In this document: positions 27,773-59,995 of the stretch, in pieces
Layout of the letters: every line of letters starts with the position of its first letter
How positions within the stretch are numbered: the stretch's first letter is position 1
Source: Terriglobia bacterium
GTDB lineage: Bacteria > Acidobacteriota > Thermoanaerobaculia > Thermoanaerobaculales > Thermoanaerobaculaceae
DNA: 64,000 bases
Assembly: GCA_020073245.1 (NCBI GenBank)
Contig: JAIQFQ010000004.1
Span: 24,181-88,180 of the forward strand
Direction: 5' to 3'
Made by a program: the position numbers and the translations under genes
The notes under the pieces: generated by a model
Seen by the model: only the letters and a program-made list of their open reading frames with translations
Database searches by the model: none
What the model was told of the DNA's origin: nothing

Positions 27773-28957
27773 ATGAATCCGGCCGCACTGCTCGCGCTCG
27801 TTTTGCCCGGCCTCGCCCTCTTGGCTGTGATGGCGTTGGCACAGAGGCGCCAGCTGCGCGAGGCTACCTCTCGGCCGGCGGGGGTGCTGCCTGGAGTGAG
27901 CATCCTCAAGCCGATGAAGGGCGCCGATCCCAACCTCGAGGAAAACCTGGACAGCTTCTTCCGGCTCGACTATTCCGAGTACGAAGTCCTGCTCGGCGTG
28001 GATGACCTCGCCGACCCGGCACTGGCGGTGGCGCGCGCCGTCGCCGCTCGGCACCCCGAGGTGCCTTGCCGGTTGGTCGTTGACCGTCGCACCGTCGGTT
28101 TCAACCCGAAGGTCAATAATCTCGCCAACATCACACGCCATGCCCGCCACGAGGTGCTCTGGATTTCCGACAGCAATACGCGGGTCGCGCCAGATACCCT
28201 TTCGGATCTTGTCGCCCGTCTCGAGCAGCCTGGCGTGGGCCTCGTCTCCTCGCCGTTCCGCGGTGTGGCAGCCACCGGCCTCGGCGGGGCGTGCGAGAGC
28301 CTCCAGCTCAACACGTTCGTGATGGGCGGCGTGGCCGCCATGCACCGCGTGATCGGCGGCGTGTGCGTGGTGGGCAAATCCATGATCCTGCGCCGCTCGA
28401 CCCTCGACGCCATCGGCGGCTTCCCCTTCCTCGCCCGCTTCCTTGCCGAGGATCAGGTGAGCGGCGAGGAGGTGGCACGGTTGGGCCTTCGTGTCGACGT
28501 TGCGAGCCGTCCGGTGGATAACGTGCTCGGTTACATGCCCCTGGATTCGTTTCTGGCCCGCCACCTGCGCTGGGCGCGCATCCGCCGTCGGATGAACCTC
28601 GTCGGCTACGTTGGCGAGGTGGTGCTCAACCCGGTGTTTCTCGCAACAATCGCGGCGCTCGCGCTGCAAAGCCGGGCAAGCCTCGCCCTGGCTGTTGCCG
28701 TGCTCGCGGTCAAGTCCGCTCTGGACGCAGCCGCCGAGCGAGGCGCCGGCGTGCGGCGCCCACTCGTCCTTTACCCAGCGCTCACGTTCGTTAAGGACAT
28801 TCTTGTCGGTGCCGTGTGGGCCGTTCCGATCGCCAGTGCGACGGTAGCTTGGCGCGGCAACCGGTTCCGTATCGGCCCGCGCACGGTGCTGCGTCGCGCC
28901 GGCGCGGAGAGTGACGCCATCACATTCGACCCCGCCTCCGCCGAAGCCACCGGTTAG
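27773..28957 (+). CDS. GT2-superfamily glycosyltransferase, ceramide-glucosyltransferase-like (GT21-like)
   Basis: ATG 27773 within tracked ORF 27599..28957. N-terminal TM helix, VSILKPMKGADPNLEENL, WISDSN (D.D-type), EDQVSGEE, and ARHLRWARIRR ((Q/R)..RW motif). Several C-terminal TM helices. Confidence 0.75.
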   Translation: MNPAALLALVLPGLALLAVMALAQRRQLREATSRPAGVLPGVSILKPMKGADPNLEENLDSFFRLDYSEYEVLLGVDDLADPALAVARAVAARHPEVPCRLVVDRRTVGFNPKVNNLANITRHARHEVLWISDSNTRVAPDTLSDLVARLEQPGVGLVSSPFRGVAATGLGGACESLQLNTFVMGGVAAMHRVIGGVCVVGKSMILRRSTLDAIGGFPFLARFLAEDQVSGEEVARLGLRVDVASRPVDNVLGYMPLDSFLARHLRWARIRRRMNLVGYVGEVVLNPVFLATIAALALQSRASLALAVAVLAVKSALDAAAERGAGVRRPLVLYPALTFVKDILVGAVWAVPIASATVAWRGNRFRIGPRTVLRRAGAESDAITFDPASAEATG

Positions 28958-29002
28958 GTCCGTCACGACGCCCGGGCCGAGGTTGACCATTGGGCTTGAA
29001 AT

Positions 29003-29140
29003 GGTCAGACGGAGGAAGTCAGAGGTGAAAAGGGAAGACGTGAAAGGGAAGATCAATAGCACACGGGCTTCTGTGAGGCTGTTTTCTGTCTGACCTTTGA
29101 CGTTTGACCCTTGACCTCTTCTTGTCGAACCTTCGAACCC
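29003..29140. repeat. Purine-block / pyrimidine-block heptad dyad element, copy A
   Basis: GA-rich arm 29003 to about 29055 (ggtcagacggaggaagtcagaggtgaaaagggaagacgtgaaagggaagatcaa). CT-rich arm about 29079-29140 containing four tandem heptads CTGACCT TTGACGT TTGACCC TTGACCT. GGTCAGAC (29003-29010) is the exact complement of GTCTGACC (29088-29095). Ends with TCGAACCTTCGAA (29125-29137). Confidence 0.55.
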
Positions 29141-29154
29141 TGCGTTATGAAACA

Positions 29155-29188
29155 CGAAGGCTCCCCGCATCGGGGAGCCTTCGATTTT
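29155..29188. terminator. Intrinsic terminator, probably bidirectional, between the convergent GT21-like and S1 genes
   Basis: CGAAGGCTCCCC-gcatc-GGGGAGCCTTCG, a perfect 12-bp stem (29155-29183), followed by aTTTTc on the plus strand. It lies 22 nt beyond the S1 gene stop on the minus strand. Confidence 0.6.
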
Positions 29189-29204
29189 CTGACGAAAGCT
29201 CGGT

Positions 29205-30629
29205 CTACTTCTTCTCGCCCTCCAGCGCCTTCATGAGGGCGCTGCCGAACGCCGTCACCTCGGGCTTGCGCTCCGCCTTCTTCTCTTCCTTCCAGTTGCG
29301 GAACTCCTTGACCGCCTTGCCCTCGCGAGCCTTCTTGACGGACAGGGAGAGGCGCTTGCGCTCCGGGTCGACGGTCAGCACGGTGGCTGAAACGCGGCTG
29401 CCGGCGACGAACGTCTTGGCGAGGTCGCCGCCCCGCGGGACGTCGGTCTCGGAGGCGGGGATCAGGCCGGTCAGGCCGGGTTCGAGCTGGACGAACACGC
29501 CGAAGTTGGCGGTGCGCTCCACGGTTCCCTCGACGGCGGTCTCGGCCGGATAACGCTGCGTGGCGTCGAGCCACGGGTCGGACGTTGCCACCTCGCGGAG
29601 GGTGAGCGACAGACGGTGGCGCTCCATATCGAGCTCGCGCACCCACCCCCGCACCGGAGTTCCAGGCGCCAGCGTCTCGTCGTCGAGCTTCATGCCGGGG
29701 GGGAGCTGGGACACGTGGATCAGGCCGTCGACTCCGGGCAGCAGCTCGACGAAGATGCCGAAATCCGTCTTGCGAGCTACGGTCCCTTCGAACACGGCGC
29801 CGGACGGAAACCGCTCCGGGACCTCGACCCACGGGTCAGGCTCCAGCGCCTTCATCGAGAGCGCTATCCGGGCCTTCTCCTTGTCGGCTTCGAGAACCTT
29901 CACGCGAACCGTGTCACCGACCTTGACGAGCTGCGACGGGCGGGCGTTCATCCTATGGGACAGCTCGGAGATGTGCACCATTCCGTCGATACCGCCGAGG
30001 TCCACGAAGACGCCGAAGTCGCGGATGCTCTTCACCGTCCCGTCGAGCTCCTGGCCCGGTACGATCCGCGCCCACGCCGCGGCGGCGGTTGCCTCGCGCT
30101 CGTCCTTGAGGACCTGGGCGCGGGAGACGACGAGCGAGTCGAGATCGTCCGACAGCTCGGTGATCCGGAACAGGAAGGACTTCCCGAGGTAGGCGTCCAC
30201 GTTGCGAGGGAAGCCGAGGTCGATCTGGGACATTGGGCAGAAGGCCCGCAACCCCGCGATCGAGATGTCGTAGCCGCCCTTGTTGCGTCCCGTGACCTTC
30301 CCATCGACGGGGACGCCGTTCTCGAAAGCACCCTTCAGGGCATCGCGCTCCCGCCGTTCGATGGCGAGCTTGTGCGAGACGCGCAGTTCGGGAGAGAGCG
30401 CGATGATGACCGCGTCGAGGCCGTCCCCCGGGCGCAGCTCGCCGAGCTCCGTACGGTCCATGACCGCCTCGGATTTTCCCCCGACGGCGATCAGGGCGAT
30501 GTCGCCGTGGACGGCCATCACCGAGCCGGTGACCAGCTGCCCGATCTCGAGCTCATCTTGCTGGAACGATTGAGCCAGGGCCTCCGCGAAGCTCTGGTCG
30601 TTCGAGGTTGCGTTCTTCTCGTTGCTCAT
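29205..30629 (-). CDS. rpsA: 30S ribosomal protein S1-like (five S1 RNA-binding domains)
   Basis: ATG 30629 (GAGGA SD 7 nt upstream) within tracked ORF 29205..30704. Repeated S1 motifs (GQLVTGSVMAVHGDIALI, GKVTGRNKGGYDISI, GTVKSIRDFGVFVDLGG..GMVHISEL, GTVARKTDFGIFVEL, GTVERTANFGVFVQL). Lys-rich tail. Confidence 0.85.
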   Translation of the reverse strand: MSNEKNATSNDQSFAEALAQSFQQDELEIGQLVTGSVMAVHGDIALIAVGGKSEAVMDRTELGELRPGDGLDAVIIALSPELRVSHKLAIERRERDALKGAFENGVPVDGKVTGRNKGGYDISIAGLRAFCPMSQIDLGFPRNVDAYLGKSFLFRITELSDDLDSLVVSRAQVLKDEREATAAAAWARIVPGQELDGTVKSIRDFGVFVDLGGIDGMVHISELSHRMNARPSQLVKVGDTVRVKVLEADKEKARIALSMKALEPDPWVEVPERFPSGAVFEGTVARKTDFGIFVELLPGVDGLIHVSQLPPGMKLDDETLAPGTPVRGWVRELDMERHRLSLTLREVATSDPWLDATQRYPAETAVEGTVERTANFGVFVQLEPGLTGLIPASETDVPRGGDLAKTFVAGSRVSATVLTVDPERKRLSLSVKKAREGKAVKEFRNWKEEKKAERKPEVTAFGSALMKALEGEKK

Positions 30630-42848: not shown

Positions 42849-43108
42849 CTCTCTGCAGGCGCCGCCGGCGTCGGACCATCTATCCGTGCGGGCGGTCCCG
42901 CGGCCGCCCCGCCACCCGCCCAGCCGCTCTAGACCCCCCGAGCCCCCGTGAGCCGCGGCGGAGCCGCGTCTCGCCCAGAGCGTTGCGCTCGGCGGTTCGC
43001 ATCCTCATGGTGCCTCCAGCTACACTCCGGTGCGACGGGCTCGTGCGCCTTGCGAGAGGCCCAACGGCGGCGGCGCGGCTGCCCGCCATGCTGTGAGGCC
43101 CTGCCTGC

Positions 43109-43222
43109 GCTGAAGAGGGAAGAAGGAAGAGGGAAGACGAAGGATGGTGGGCGGAAGGCAGTCTCTGCCTTCCCTCTACCGTGTCCCCTCTACCCTCTCC
43201 CGTTCCGTCTCGTCTGCTGAAG
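43109..43222. repeat. Purine-block / pyrimidine-block heptad dyad element, copy C (best-defined copy)
   Basis: Heptads GAGGGAA GAAGGAA GAGGGAA GACGAAG GATGGTG GGCGGAA (43115-43156). Perfect core hairpin GGAAGGCAG-tct-CTGCCTTCC (43153-43173). The reverse complement of the CT-rich arm reads AACGGGA GAGGGTA GAGGGGA CACGGTA GAGGGAA. GCTGAAG is present at both ends (43109-43115 and 43216-43222). Confidence 0.65.
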
Positions 43223-57382: not shown

Positions 57383-57467
57383 AGCTGGGGAGCGTTCGAA
57401 CCTTCGAATGTGTGAACCTCTGGACCCTCATTGCCTGGCAGTTGTTGCCCGCGCGGGCGGCGAGACG

Positions 57468-59682: not shown

Positions 59683-59870
59683 ATTCGGCTCGCCAGGCGA
59701 GCCGAATTCATCCCGAGCGAAGCGAGGGATCCCCCCGCGCCACGTTGGCTTGAGCAGGCTCGCCAGGCGAGCCGAATTCATCCCGAGCGAAGCGAGGGAT
59801 CCCCCCGCGCCACGTTGGCTTGAGCAGGCTCGCCGGGCGAGCCGAGTTCATCCCGAGCGAAGCGAGGGAC
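59681..59870. repeat. 70-bp tandem repeat (2 identical copies plus a diverged partial third), each unit carrying a palindrome
   Basis: Unit GGCTCGCCAGGCGAGCCGAATTCATCCCGAGCGAAGCGAGGGATCCCCCCGCGCCACGTTGGCTTGAGCA at 59687-59756 and 59757-59826 (identical by eye). The third copy, 59827 to about 59870, has 3 substitutions. A 29-nt perfect palindrome GAATTCGGCTCGCC-A-GGCGAGCCGAATTC at 59681-59709 starts directly after the TGA of the zinc-ribbon gene. Confidence 0.85.
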
Positions 59871-59995
59871 CCCTCAGCGCGAGAGGGGACGGCCATTCGA
59901 GAGTCTTTTGTCTGGTGGTCATTCGTGACGTGCGCCCGTGCGAGCGCCGCGCGTGCCTCATCGCGGGAGAGCGGCCGGCTGCTGAGGCCCGCCGA

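What the first reader, a model, noticed from the sequence alone, without database searches (positions are those of the whole stretch)
29003..29140. Copy A: right arm is four tandem TTGACCN heptads; shares a 13-nt terminal motif with copy D
This sits between the convergent GT21-like and S1 genes.

The GA-rich arm (GACGGAG GAAGTCA GAGGTGA AAAGGGA ...) is followed by CTGACCT TTGACGT TTGACCC TTGACCT. This is the complement of the AAGGTCA-type heptads that open copy B.

GGTCAGAC (29003-29010) and GTCTGACC (29088-29095) are perfectly complementary and would close a large stem.

The element ends with TCGAACCTTCGAA (29125-29137). The identical 13-mer follows copy D at 57396-57408. A 13-mer match somewhere in 64 kb is not remarkable by itself, but finding it at the equivalent flank of two copies is.

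A separate canonical terminator hairpin (29155-29183) follows. So the element is probably not simply the terminator of these genes.
Basis: seen in the sequence. Interest (0 to 1): 0.6.

Follow-up and report, generated by a model that had tools for sequence, protein, structure and literature searches.

The report
Nested tandem-repeat hairpin between genes
This spot is one gene-less copy of a fast-changing family of DNA hairpins whose arms are runs of 7- and 8-base words; the shared 13 letters are a piece of an 8-base repeat, and the same kind of arms wraps a small, unexplained gene family first seen in ribosomal RNA inserts.

Summary
Every motif sits at the stated coordinates.

**What the 13-mer is.** It is not a fixed terminus. 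It is 1.6 units of an octamer tandem array, (TTCGAACC)n.
- It occurs at 16 loci in this 4.4-Mb genome.
- At all 16 it lies just outside a pyrimidine-rich repeat arm.
- At nine loci its complement sits outside the opposite arm.
- Close relatives carry arrays of up to 15 units, and other phyla up to 29.

**What copy A is.** It is a nested quasi-palindrome: a worn octamer remnant, an AAGGTCA-type heptad arm, a unique loop, the TTGACCN arm, then the octamers.

**How the family behaves.**
- The genome holds over 100 such hairpins, nearly always G/purine-rich arm first (129:2).
- Partner arms share a word type but not a matching word order.
- Loops are unique.
- Orthologous sites in sister genomes carry different word types.
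- One site shows a heptad hairpin exactly at the centre of a bare octamer palindrome.

**Link to a gene family.** The same kind of arms brackets 23S-rRNA-IVS-protein (four-helix-bundle) genes: 2 of 2 here, 21 of 22 in the genus, and 65 of 73 metagenomic relatives.

**Most likely reading.** Copy A is a gene-less, IVS-like hairpin nested in an older octamer palindrome.

This scan has noted the same class before on other DNA, in at least eight phyla, and on two other copies in this window.

The parts
28980..29002 (.). Degenerate remnant of the inverted octamer module (GGTTCGAA-like words). It pairs with the right-hand octamers in the fold.
   Evidence: Sequence read. Pairing with 29124-29140 is seen in the minimum-free-energy structure. 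Calling it a worn octamer array is inference by analogy with 9 loci that have clear arrays on both flanks.
29003..29052 (.). Purine-rich arm: AAGGTCA/AAGGGAA/GACGTGA-type heptads (type H1, purine form).
   Evidence: It is one of the purine-rich runs found by the composition scan (one search lists C31:53178-53243, which is window 28998-29063).
29053..29089 (.). Unique loop. It holds a small hairpin (29066-29080) followed by GTTTTCTG on the + strand.
   Evidence: terminator-like scan. True loops of this family have no second copy in the genome.
29090..29117 (.). Pyrimidine-rich arm: four tandem heptads CTGACCT, TTGACGT, TTGACCC, TTGACCT (type H1, pyrimidine form).
   Evidence: period 7, 3.9 copies.
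29118..29123 (.). Short linker (CTTCTT) between the heptads and the octamers. Other copies have a similar TCTT-rich linker.
   Evidence: flanks of 15 heptad arrays; G002 orthologue.
29124..29139 (.). Octamer array, two units: GTCGAACC and TTCGAACC.
29155..29183 (.). Separate intrinsic-terminator-like hairpin next to the S1 gene end. It is not part of the repeat element.
   Evidence: It is conserved next to S1 in G002 and G018, whereas the element varies.
57395..57426 (.). Octamer array at the right flank of copy D: TTCGAACC, TTCGAATG, TGTGAACC, TCTGGACC. It holds the second 13-mer (57396-57408).

Best explanation
Copy A (about 28980-29140) is a gene-less member of a genus-wide, fast-turnover population of intergenic quasi-palindromes. 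Their arms are inverted arrays of short tandem words.

**Two nested layers.**
- The inner layer is a heptad hairpin: an AAGGTCA-type purine arm, a unique loop, and the TTGACCN pyrimidine arm.
- The outer layer is an octamer palindrome: GGTTCGAA-type words on the left, now worn, and (TTCGAACC)n on the right.
- The '13-mer terminal motif' is 1.6 units of that outer array.

**Shown.**
- The family, its strict polarity with the G/purine-rich arm first, and its word-type matching between arms.
- The outer position of the octamers.
- Rapid replacement at orthologous sites.
- The fact that heptad arms of the same kind and polarity bracket the four-helix-bundle genes of the 23S-rRNA-IVS-protein family in this genome, this genus and in metagenomes.

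**Inferred.**
- The heptad hairpin is an empty (ORF-less) form of such IVS-like cassettes.
- These hairpins arrive or are replaced as arm pairs, preferentially at the dyad centre of an existing hairpin. That placement is the same as for rRNA IVSs, which sit at helix tips.
- Slippage then changes word number.
- When transcribed, the arms form a long double-stranded RNA stem. Here that happens mainly from the glycosyltransferase side, since S1 has its own terminator. The stem ends, insulates or is cut out of the transcript (an RNase III-type substrate) without needing a cognate protein.
For: **The family and the octamer flank**
- The 13-mer occurs 21 times at 16 loci, always outside a pyrimidine array.
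- Of 64 intergenic octamer arrays, 43 have 70% or more pyrimidine upstream and none has purine-rich sequence upstream.
- Thirty of them abut H1 heptads.
- Nine loci show octamer(inverted)...octamer with 106-159 nt between. None shows the opposite order.

**Polarity**
- Purine-run then pyrimidine-run pairs number 129, against 2 in the reverse order. A coarser scan gave 92 against 6.

**Arms**
- Arms match by word type in 33 of 44 elements, against 13.9 with shuffled partners.
- Within a type, partner arms pair no better than arms from different elements.
- Loops are unique.

**Turnover at orthologous sites**
- At the copy D site, five genomes carry five different module sets.
- At the S1 site there is no element in G004 or G016, a full element in G002 and G000, and a truncated one in G018.
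- Ten G002 heptad loci were compared with G000. Three have the same type, two a different type, three are absent and one has no flank match.
- In the tenth, the G002 heptad hairpin lies exactly at the centre of a bare octamer palindrome that G000 keeps.

**Link to IVS-protein genes**
- 2 of 2 PF05635 genes in G000 lie between inverted word arrays.
- So do 21 of 22 in the genus, by my reading of the flanks. The same insertion site carries different words in different genomes, and both arms change together.
- So do 14 of 15 in three genomes of other lineages.
- Among the 80 best metagenomic relatives, 73 have 150 nt or more on both sides. Of these, 65 show an inverted repeat across the gene (z of 4 or more) and 37 have tandem arrays on both sides, 33 of them complementary. 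All but one array has period 7.
- The G-rich arm comes first in 29 of 30.

**Other**
- An RNase III gene is present.
- IVS stems are RNase III substrates (Warrier 2016, PMC4990558, passages read).
Against: - No PF05635 gene with AAGGTCA-type or GGTTCGAA-type arms was found. This holds for the 22 genus loci, and tblastn found none within about 4 kb of 80 octamer loci from other genomes. Copy A's descent from a gene-bearing cassette is therefore by class resemblance only.
- Cassette arms are almost always period 7. The octamer module that the finding is about is not a typical cassette arm.
- The centre-of-palindrome case (L128) is one locus. It could equally be a precise deletion of a hairpin in G000.
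- Other genes can lie between half-elements. Examples are a 1.1-kb ORF with no Pfam match in G016 and DinB-like and enolase genes between separate elements.
- There is no sign of RNA-level selection. In tandem gene contexts the sense strand folds better in only 17 of 36 cases.
- 14 of 82 hairpins lie between divergent genes.
- Neutral sites between G000 and G002 are probably saturated, so different loops at orthologous sites say little.
- Contigs from other metagenomes show no length variation at copies A and B.
- No RNA data could be had.
Confidence: 0.55

Rival explanations
1. These are plain long simple-sequence repeats. Heptad and octamer arrays arise and change by replication slippage in tolerated intergenic DNA. 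Inverted pairs persist because hairpins are harmless or mildly useful at gene ends. IVS-protein genes merely tend to land in or next to such hairpins.
For: - Word numbers vary widely between genomes.
- Arm lengths are barely correlated (r = 0.16).
- Partner arms are no better matched than arms from different elements.
- Heptanucleotide repeats are the commonest long repeat class in prokaryotes and were ascribed to slippage (Mrazek 2007, as cited in MacGregor 2015, PMC4679880, passages read).
- Other genes also sit between half-elements.
Against: - Slippage alone does not explain the 129:2 polarity.
- It does not explain the matching of word type between arms (33 of 44).
- It does not explain why many loci in two genomes share the same word variants despite saturated neutral divergence.
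- It does not explain presence or absence of whole arm pairs.
- It does not explain inverted repeats around unrelated metagenomic IVS-protein genes in 65 of 73 cases.
Confidence: 0.22
2. The element is a miniature inverted-repeat transposable element. The octamer arrays are its terminal inverted repeats and a transposase encoded elsewhere moves it.
For: - The architecture is shared: inverted octamers, linker, heptads, loop.
- Right arms are 85-91% identical over 50-77 nt between loci.
- A 59-nt, 90% match to copy A's right arm exists at a non-orthologous place in G018.
- Presence and absence differ between G000 and G002.
- One G002 insertion is flanked by a roughly 40-nt imperfect direct duplication.
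Against: - Loops are unique even between copies with near-identical arms, so whole elements are not being copied.
- No short target-site duplication is seen at the cleanest case (L128).
- Terminal arrays vary from 1 to 6 units and are often missing on one side.
- The only Y1 transposase is flanked by its own, different REP family.
- Both reverse transcriptases are group II intron maturases.
Confidence: 0.08
3. The element is a locus-specific functional RNA element. It would be a long bidirectional terminator or a 3'-UTR stabiliser for the glycosyltransferase operon, selected as such.
For: - The + strand folds much better than the - strand (-96.8 against -77.6 kcal/mol).
- The loop holds a small hairpin plus T-run.
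- Hairpins are 2.6-fold enriched between convergent genes: 29 of 79 intergenic hairpins against 479 of 3455 adjacent gene pairs.
- Purine-first polarity is what a bidirectional terminator has (A-tract, stem, U-tract). That comparison rests on established knowledge and is inference here.
Against: - The neighbour on the left is not conserved. The site is empty in G004 and G016 and truncated in G018.
- There is no strand preference across the family (17 of 36).
- 14 copies lie between divergent genes.
- Rfam has no match.
Confidence: 0.1
4. The arrays are made by polar addition of G-rich repeats to the two 3' ends of a double-strand break (telomerase-like healing), followed by joining. This would give G-rich strands that converge on a unique junction.
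For: - It predicts exactly the observed polarity, unique junction loops, arms that share a word type but not a register, and foreign DNA at centres.
Against: - There is no candidate enzyme. Both RVT_1 genes are group II intron maturases.
- Five or more word types would need as many templates.
- In sister genomes one octamer arm is long and perfect while the other is short and worn. That fits slippage on one side, not paired synthesis.
Confidence: 0.03

Closest known systems
G-rich heptameric repeats of Xanthomonas (GGGAATC) and Nostoc (GGGGAYT), including 'convergent' inverted pairs (Rehm et al. 2015, PMC4692102; passages read)
   Same: - Tandem 7-nt words that are intergenic and lie close to the end of the upstream ORF.
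- Dispersed through the genome.
- Often two arrays on opposite strands with the G-rich strands converging.
- Lengths differ between sister species while the pair type is kept.
- Function unknown.
   Different: - The words here lack a G-tract of 3, so the quadruplex reading does not apply to the AAGGTCA type.
- Several word families coexist and are nested.
- An 8-nt TTCGAACC module forms an outer layer.
- The link to IVS-protein genes is not in that paper, as far as the passages I read show.
ORF-bearing intervening sequences (IVS) of 23S rRNA with the S23p / PF05635 four-helix-bundle protein (Coxiella, Leptospira, Xanthomonas; Warrier et al. 2016, PMC4990558; passages read)
   Same: - Complementary arms form a long stem around a loop, and the insertion sits at the tip of an existing helix.
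- In gene-bearing forms the same protein family lies in the loop (2 of 2 here).
- The stem is a known RNase III substrate in rRNA.
   Different: - Copy A has no ORF and is not in rRNA.
- Its arms are tandem word arrays rather than unique inverted repeats.
- Excision has not been tested.
REP / BIME mosaic extragenic palindromes of enterobacteria and REPIN-RAYT systems (named from established knowledge; listing of PMC2817692 and PMC8266576 seen)
   Same: - High-copy extragenic palindromes at gene ends, combined in mosaics of several motif types.
- Enriched between convergent genes.
   Different: - There is no conserved 20-40-nt palindromic unit.
- The genome's RAYT-like gene is flanked by a different REP family.
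STRR heptanucleotide repeats of heterocystous cyanobacteria and TAACTGA repeats of Beggiatoaceae (MacGregor 2015, PMC4679880; passages read; STRR recalled)
   Same: - Lineage-specific 7-nt tandem words in intergenic DNA.
- The same word has a patchy distribution across phyla.
- No known mechanism.
   Different: - Those are mostly direct arrays upstream of start codons.
- Here the arrays are inverted pairs with strict polarity and nesting.
MITEs such as Correia/NEMIS or ERIC (recalled; review PMC2229807 seen as a listing)
   Same: - Small, non-coding, hairpin-forming and dispersed, with presence or absence differing between strains.
   Different: - Internal regions are not conserved.
- The ends are variable arrays.
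- No target duplication or cognate transposase was found.

Membership tests
Heptameric intergenic repeats with convergent inverted pairs (Xanthomonas type) | Head-to-tail repeats of a 7-nt unit, at least 3-4 units | tested here: met
   TRF reports 29091-29117, period 7, 3.9 copies. Four heptads were read.
Heptameric intergenic repeats with convergent inverted pairs (Xanthomonas type) | Two arrays close together on opposite strands, G-rich strands converging | tested here: met
   Purine arm 29003-29052 faces pyrimidine arm 29090-29117. Genome-wide the counts are 129 purine-then-pyrimidine pairs against 2 in the reverse order.
Heptameric intergenic repeats with convergent inverted pairs (Xanthomonas type) | G-tracts of 3 or more in each unit, allowing a G-quadruplex | tested here: not met
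   The units AAGGTCA, GACGTGA and AAGGGAA seldom hold GGG in consecutive units. Quadruplex potential is not a property of this word type.
Heptameric intergenic repeats with convergent inverted pairs (Xanthomonas type) | Dispersed, intergenic, nearer to the upstream gene end | tested here: met
   79 of 82 hairpins are intergenic. Distances from the stop codon are mostly -50 to +70 nt (my own gene calls).
IVS-like hairpin cassette (23S rRNA IVS with PF05635 ORF) | Complementary arms that form a long stem | tested here: met
   Fold at -96.8 kcal/mol, z -8.4.
IVS-like hairpin cassette (23S rRNA IVS with PF05635 ORF) | PF05635 gene in the loop | tested here: not met
   The loop of copy A is 37 nt. 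The gene-bearing form exists elsewhere in the genome with other word types. None was found with AAGGTCA or GGTTCGAA arms.
IVS-like hairpin cassette (23S rRNA IVS with PF05635 ORF) | Insertion at the tip of a pre-existing helix | tested here: inconclusive
   The heptad hairpin lies between inverted octamer arrays at 9 loci. It lies at the exact centre of a bare octamer palindrome in one G000/G002 comparison. A deletion in G000 would give the same picture.
IVS-like hairpin cassette (23S rRNA IVS with PF05635 ORF) | Excision of the stem-loop by RNase III | not testable with these tools
   An RNase III gene is present. No RNA run holds the region.
MITE | Copies alignable over their whole length, internal part included | tested here: not met
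   True loops have no second copy in the genome. The matches listed come from embedded arrays or REP-like hairpins.
MITE | Short target-site duplication at insertions | tested here: inconclusive
   None is seen at L128. A roughly 40-nt imperfect duplication is seen at L124. Only two informative sites were available.
MITE | Cognate transposase with the same ends | not tested
   Only Y1_Tnp and RVT_1 were searched. Neither is associated with the arrays.
REP / REPIN-RAYT | RAYT gene flanked by the repeat in question | tested here: not met
   The single Y1_Tnp gene (C37:19440-19841) is flanked by a different palindromic repeat.
Intrinsic terminator | Short G+C-rich stem followed by a T-run | tested here: inconclusive
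   The loop has a 6-pair hairpin plus GTTTTCTG on the + strand. The long stem itself has no trailing T-run. A canonical terminator lies 15 nt further on.

The most novel reading that the evidence does not exclude
Heptad hairpins such as copy A may be the empty forms of a widespread, undescribed selfish cassette.
- The cassette's cargo would be the ring-forming four-helix-bundle (IVS/Avd-like) protein.
- It would home to the tips of existing hairpins: rRNA helices, terminators, and octamer palindromes such as (GGTTCGAA)n|(TTCGAACC)n.
- Each 7-nt word would be read, about one word per subunit, by its own protein variant.
- The G-rich-arm-first rule would exist because that arm is the translated leader of the cargo gene.
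- The octamer arrays would be landing pads rather than ends.

If so, the unexplained bacterial heptamer repeats, the 23S rRNA intervening sequences and the PF05635 family would be one system.
Probability: 0.15. Interest if true: 0.8.

Novelty: new variant of a known kind. Interest (0 to 1): 0.5.

Why it matters
On its own, copy A is one more bacterial heptamer-repeat hairpin, a class known since Xanthomonas and cyanobacteria and still unexplained.

What this case adds is anatomy.
- The hairpins are layered, with octamer palindromes outside and heptad hairpins inside.
- They obey a near-absolute polarity.
- They are replaced as arm pairs at fixed sites.
- Arms of the same kind enclose the 23S-rRNA-IVS-protein genes in this genome, its genus and unrelated metagenomes.

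If the link is causal, three old loose ends become one testable system:
- why 7-nt repeats dominate prokaryotic long repeats;
- what rRNA intervening sequences are;
- what PF05635/Avd-like proteins do outside diversity-generating retroelements.

On the practical side, these arrays break assemblies. Contigs of sister genomes end inside them. They also mark rearrangement-prone sites.

Tried and rejected
- **RNA evidence.** No RNA holder was listed for 28500-29800, so nothing can be said on expression.
- **Population variation.** Contigs of four DNA runs span copy A (X4, X6) and copy B (X3, X5) with 0-1 differences. One 2-nt deletion row at 29120 comes from a contig that matches only 29091-29138 and is a paralogue.
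- **Rfam.** There was no match in the window or in six octamer loci of relatives.
- **A TTCGAA-specific restriction system or other protein.** TTCGAA is not avoided (ratio 0.91).
- **RAYT.** It is present but has its own REP family.
- **Reverse transcriptase idea.** Both hits are group II intron maturases.
- **Loops as captured DNA.** There are no second copies except embedded REP-like hairpins and arrays.
- **Fold-back origin.** Partner arms are no better matched than arms from different elements.
- **RNA strand selection.** None was seen (17 of 36).
- **Gene-bearing octamer or H1 cassettes in G000.** The candidates were ordinary genes (DinB-like, enolase) lying between separate elements.
- **The ORF between half-elements in G016.** It has no Pfam match.
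- **First gene caller.** It covered only 57% of the genome and was discarded. The counts come from the second caller (88% coding), which is my own crude method.
- **Rows dropped.**
  - 22 of 86 octamer arrays lay inside predicted genes.
  - 7 of 80 metagenome loci had under 150 nt on one side.
  - The partial PF05635 hit L154 and three hits without loci were not read.
- **Literature searches.** Searches found no paper on TTCGAACC arrays and none linking PF05635 genes to tandem-repeat arms outside rRNA.
Full report
**Observation**

- GGTCAGAC lies at 29003-29010 and GTCTGACC at 29088-29095.
- The four heptads lie at 29090-29117. TRF reports period 7 and 3.9 copies.
- TCGAACCTTCGAA lies at 29125-29137 and at 57396-57408.
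- The separate terminator-like hairpin lies at 29155-29183.
- The neighbours are a Glyco_transf_21 gene on the + strand and an S1-domain gene on the - strand.

As RNA the + strand folds to -96.8 kcal/mol (z -8.4) and the - strand to -77.6 (z -5.1), terminator included. In that fold the GA-rich arm pairs with the heptads. A stretch further left (28980-29002) pairs with the TCGAACC words. The element is therefore longer than stated, and the proposed 8-bp closure is not the register used.

**What the 13-mer is**

In the window alone its count is not significant. The window is C31:24181-88180 of a 4.38-Mb, 67% G+C assembly.
- In the whole genome the 13-mer occurs 21 times at 16 loci. I estimate about 0.04 expected from base composition.
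- The backwards control gives none in 19 genomes.
- The flanks show that it is a fragment of a tandem octamer array. Its units read TTCGAACC, TGCGAACG, TGTGAACC and the like.
- I found 86 such arrays of 2 or more units. Twenty-two lay in predicted genes and were dropped. The 64 intergenic ones hold 2 to 6 units.
- Read on the TTCGAACC strand, 43 of the 64 have 70% or more pyrimidine in the 45 nt upstream. None has purine-rich sequence there.
- Thirty abut TTGAC-type heptads, 7 abut CTTCC-type, 6 abut ACTCTT-type and 2 abut CTCCTCTG-type. Nineteen abut none of these.
- At nine loci the inverted form (GGTTCGAA words) stands on the left and the TTCGAACC form on the right, with 106-159 nt between. 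The opposite order never occurs.
- A further octamer module (CTCCTCTG words) often follows on the outside.

**The wider family in this genome**

- Runs of 80% or more purine followed within 150 nt by runs of 80% or more pyrimidine number 129 in intergenic DNA. The reverse order occurs twice. A coarser scan gave 92 against 6.
- This polarity is the same on both strands, so it is a property of the dyad: the G/purine-rich arm is always 5'.
- Of 44 elements that I could type on both arms, 33 have the same word type on both. Shuffled partners give a mean of 13.9 and a maximum of 25 in 2000 shuffles.
- Within a type, an arm pairs with its own partner no better than with the partner of another element. 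For H1, n = 37, the scores are 17.2 against 16.3. For H2, n = 30, they are 18.9 against 18.1.
- Arm lengths are barely correlated (r = 0.16).
- True loops have no second copy in the genome. Some loops hold a REP-like G+C-rich hairpin of another family.
- I built my own codon-based gene calls (3544 genes, 88% coding). With these, 82 hairpins lie as follows: 29 between convergent genes, 36 between tandem genes, 14 between divergent genes and 3 inside genes.
- Among all adjacent gene pairs there are 479 convergent, 2494 tandem and 482 divergent.
- In tandem contexts the sense strand folds better in 17 of 36 cases. I therefore see no RNA-strand selection.

**Relatives**

The genome is an uncultured Thermoanaerobaculaceae (Acidobacteriota) bacterium. 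This comes from earlier notes and from the titles of sister MAGs.

Distribution among 19 genomes of the genus:

| Word or motif | Genomes with it | Counts |
|---|---|---|
| The 13-mer | 6 | G000 21, G002 94, G016 95, G018 17, G004 16, G013 1 |
| TTGAC-type heptad pattern | 4 | G000 17, G002 13, G003 2, G018 1 |
| GGAAGAC-type pattern | 12 | not listed here |

- G016 has runs of up to 15 octamer units, and contigs there end inside arrays.
- Twelve genomes of the sister family have essentially none: one chance-like heptad hit and no GGAAGAC-type hit.

The site downstream of S1:
- G004 has a 25-nt spacer and no element.
- G016 has none.
- G002 has a full element plus the terminator.
- G000 has copy A. 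Its right arm and terminator are orthologous, but its left neighbour is different.
- G018 keeps only the last octamer and the terminator.

The copy D site:
- G000, G002, G018, G004 and G016 each have a purine-first structure built from different modules.
- The arms match within each genome that has a hairpin.
- In G016 a 1.1-kb ORF with no Pfam match lies between the two halves.

Ten TTGAC-type loci of G002 compared with G000:
- three have the same type;
- two have another type;
- three have none;
- one has no flank match;
- one (L128) is informative. G000 has a bare octamer palindrome where G002 has a roughly 150-nt heptad hairpin exactly at its centre.

Coding identity between the two genomes is 75-92% at the DNA level. 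Neutral sites are therefore probably saturated, and differing loops at orthologous sites carry little weight.

**Beyond the genus**

- Three tandem TTCGAACC units occur in 83 stretches of the species-level genome collection.
- They are in sister Thermoanaerobaculaceae MAGs, in other Acidobacteriota, and at about 25 loci of one Chloroflexia MAG.
- A Bacteroidales MAG has up to 29 units. There are scattered single hits elsewhere.
- In the Chloroflexia MAG the usual form is GGTTCGAA words, a loop of about 12 nt, then TTCGAACC words. Lineage-specific GTTACTC heptads lie outside them. The nesting order is therefore not fixed.
- The sister MAGs carry another composite with a conserved core between a worn left array and a long perfect right array. 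That form is absent from G000 and unknown to Rfam.

**The lead from earlier notes, tested here**

Notes of this scan on other genomes say two things. Such hairpins are purine-arm-first in many phyla. Some carry a PF05635 (23S rRNA IVS protein, four-helix-bundle) gene in the loop. I tested this in four sets.

| Set | Result |
|---|---|
| G000 | 2 of 2 PF05635 genes lie between inverted word arrays |
| Genus | 13 of 19 genomes have hits; by my reading of the flanks, 21 of 22 genes lie between inverted tandem arrays |
| Three array-rich genomes of other lineages | 14 of 15 do; the odd one has same-sense AGTTCCAR octamers |
| Best 80 metagenomic relatives of one subfamily (less biased) | see below |

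In G000:
- One gene sits between GAGTGAA-type and CACTCTT-type arrays, in the spacer between two sugar-nucleotide genes.
- The other sits between (CAGGGGT)4 and (CCCTGAC)4, inside a dnaE2-like reading frame.

In the genus:
- The same site carries different words in different genomes, with both arms changed together.
- After one conserved gene end the words are AGTTRAC or AGCTGAC.
- In the spacer before the dnaE2-like gene they are CGTGGTCC, CGGGCTC or CGGGGCT.
- Between the sugar-nucleotide genes there are three different types.

In the metagenome set:
- 73 loci have 150 nt or more on both sides.
- 65 show an inverted repeat across the gene (z of 4 or more against shuffles).
- 37 have tandem arrays on both sides, 33 of them complementary.
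- All periods are 7 except one of 8.
- The upstream arm has G > C in 29 of 30 complementary cassettes and in 45 of 47 upstream arrays.

No PF05635 gene with AAGGTCA or GGTTCGAA arms turned up.

**Reading**

The descriptive core is secure. Copy A is a nested inverted tandem-repeat hairpin, and the 13-mer is part of its outer octamer array.

The best mechanistic reading has four parts.
- The inner heptad hairpin is a gene-less form of the IVS-like cassettes.
- These hairpins are gained and replaced as arm pairs, preferentially at the centres of existing hairpins.
- Slippage then alters word number.
- As RNA the long stem acts as a transcript end or an RNase III-type processing site. An rnc gene is present, and IVS stems are cut by RNase III (PMC4990558, passages).

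Each of these last steps is inference. The rivals are plain slippage repeats, a MITE with octamer ends, a locus-specific terminator, and polar repeat addition at breaks. They are weighed in their own sections.

**Known and new**

- Heptamer repeats with convergent pairs are described for Xanthomonas (PMC4692102, passages).
- Heptanucleotide repeats as the commonest long repeats are cited in PMC4679880 (passages).
- ORF-bearing IVSs are described only in 23S rRNA (PMC4990558, passages).
- My searches found nothing on TTCGAACC arrays, on nesting, or on PF05635 genes with tandem-repeat arms outside rRNA.
- The library is partial and supplements were closed.
- The scan itself has reported the class and the gene link several times on other DNA, and has reported two other copies in this window as members of the heptamer class.

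I therefore file copy A as a new variant of a known kind, of moderate interest.

Noticed in passing
window 42857-43109 (core 42980-43086): A separate dispersed repeat of about 230-250 nt. It has 43 BLAST hits in G000 and dozens at 70-88% identity in each of G002, G016, G018 and G004. Its 3' end is usually followed by a word array or hairpin, as at 43109-43222. It has no Rfam match.
   Followed up: partly
window 59687-59880: A tandem repeat of a 70-nt unit, 2.8 copies, 95% matches.
   Followed up: no
G000 C33:100860-101300 (locus L133); also G003, G004, G015 (L141, L142, L145): A PF05635 gene with its heptad arms sits inside a dnaE2-like reading frame at the same codon position in four genomes. 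In G004 the frame of the hit stays open for 1131 residues, so the insert may be translated as part of the polymerase.
   Followed up: partly
G000 C37:19000-20200 (locus L130): A RAYT-like Y1 transposase gene is flanked on both sides by clusters of its own palindromic repeat. This looks like a classical REP-RAYT pair and is unrelated to the word arrays.
   Followed up: partly
G000 C1:28213-28292, C60:18893-18972, C80:18915-18994, C63:13289-13315: REP-like G+C-rich hairpins of another family sit inside the loops of word hairpins, that is, nested at dyad centres.
   Followed up: partly
Loci L037, L044, L062, L081, L091, L097, L106-L108, L112 (sister Thermoanaerobaculaceae MAGs): A composite with a conserved core of about 60 nt lies between a worn GGTTCGAA-type array and a long perfect TTCGAACC array of 4-15 units, bracketed by GCAGAGGA-type octamers. 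It is absent from G000, has no Rfam match, and contigs end inside the arrays.
   Followed up: partly
G016 C88:2800-4300 (locus L027): At the copy D site, a roughly 340-residue ORF with a signal-peptide-like start and no Pfam match lies between the purine half and the pyrimidine half of an octamer element.
   Followed up: partly
G000 C67:37954-37979 and G002 C22 about 60300 (locus L128): The last octamer word (TTGAAC) lies 15 nt upstream of a TAGACT box that precedes a start codon closely. The array may supply the -35 box of a leaderless gene. The leaderless pattern itself is from an earlier first-reader note.
   Followed up: no
G002 C6 about 73800-74200 (locus L124) against G000 C58:238380-238900: A composite element present only in G002 is flanked by a roughly 40-nt imperfect direct duplication of a CGTGGNNN octamer run plus a GAAAGGCAG-like motif that G000 has once.
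   Followed up: partly
genome-wide: The octamer word in its purine form (GGTTCGAA) is the same string as the conserved T-arm motif of tRNA genes. This is recalled. The paper search for the word returned mostly tRNA sequences and primers. No link was tested.
   Followed up: no
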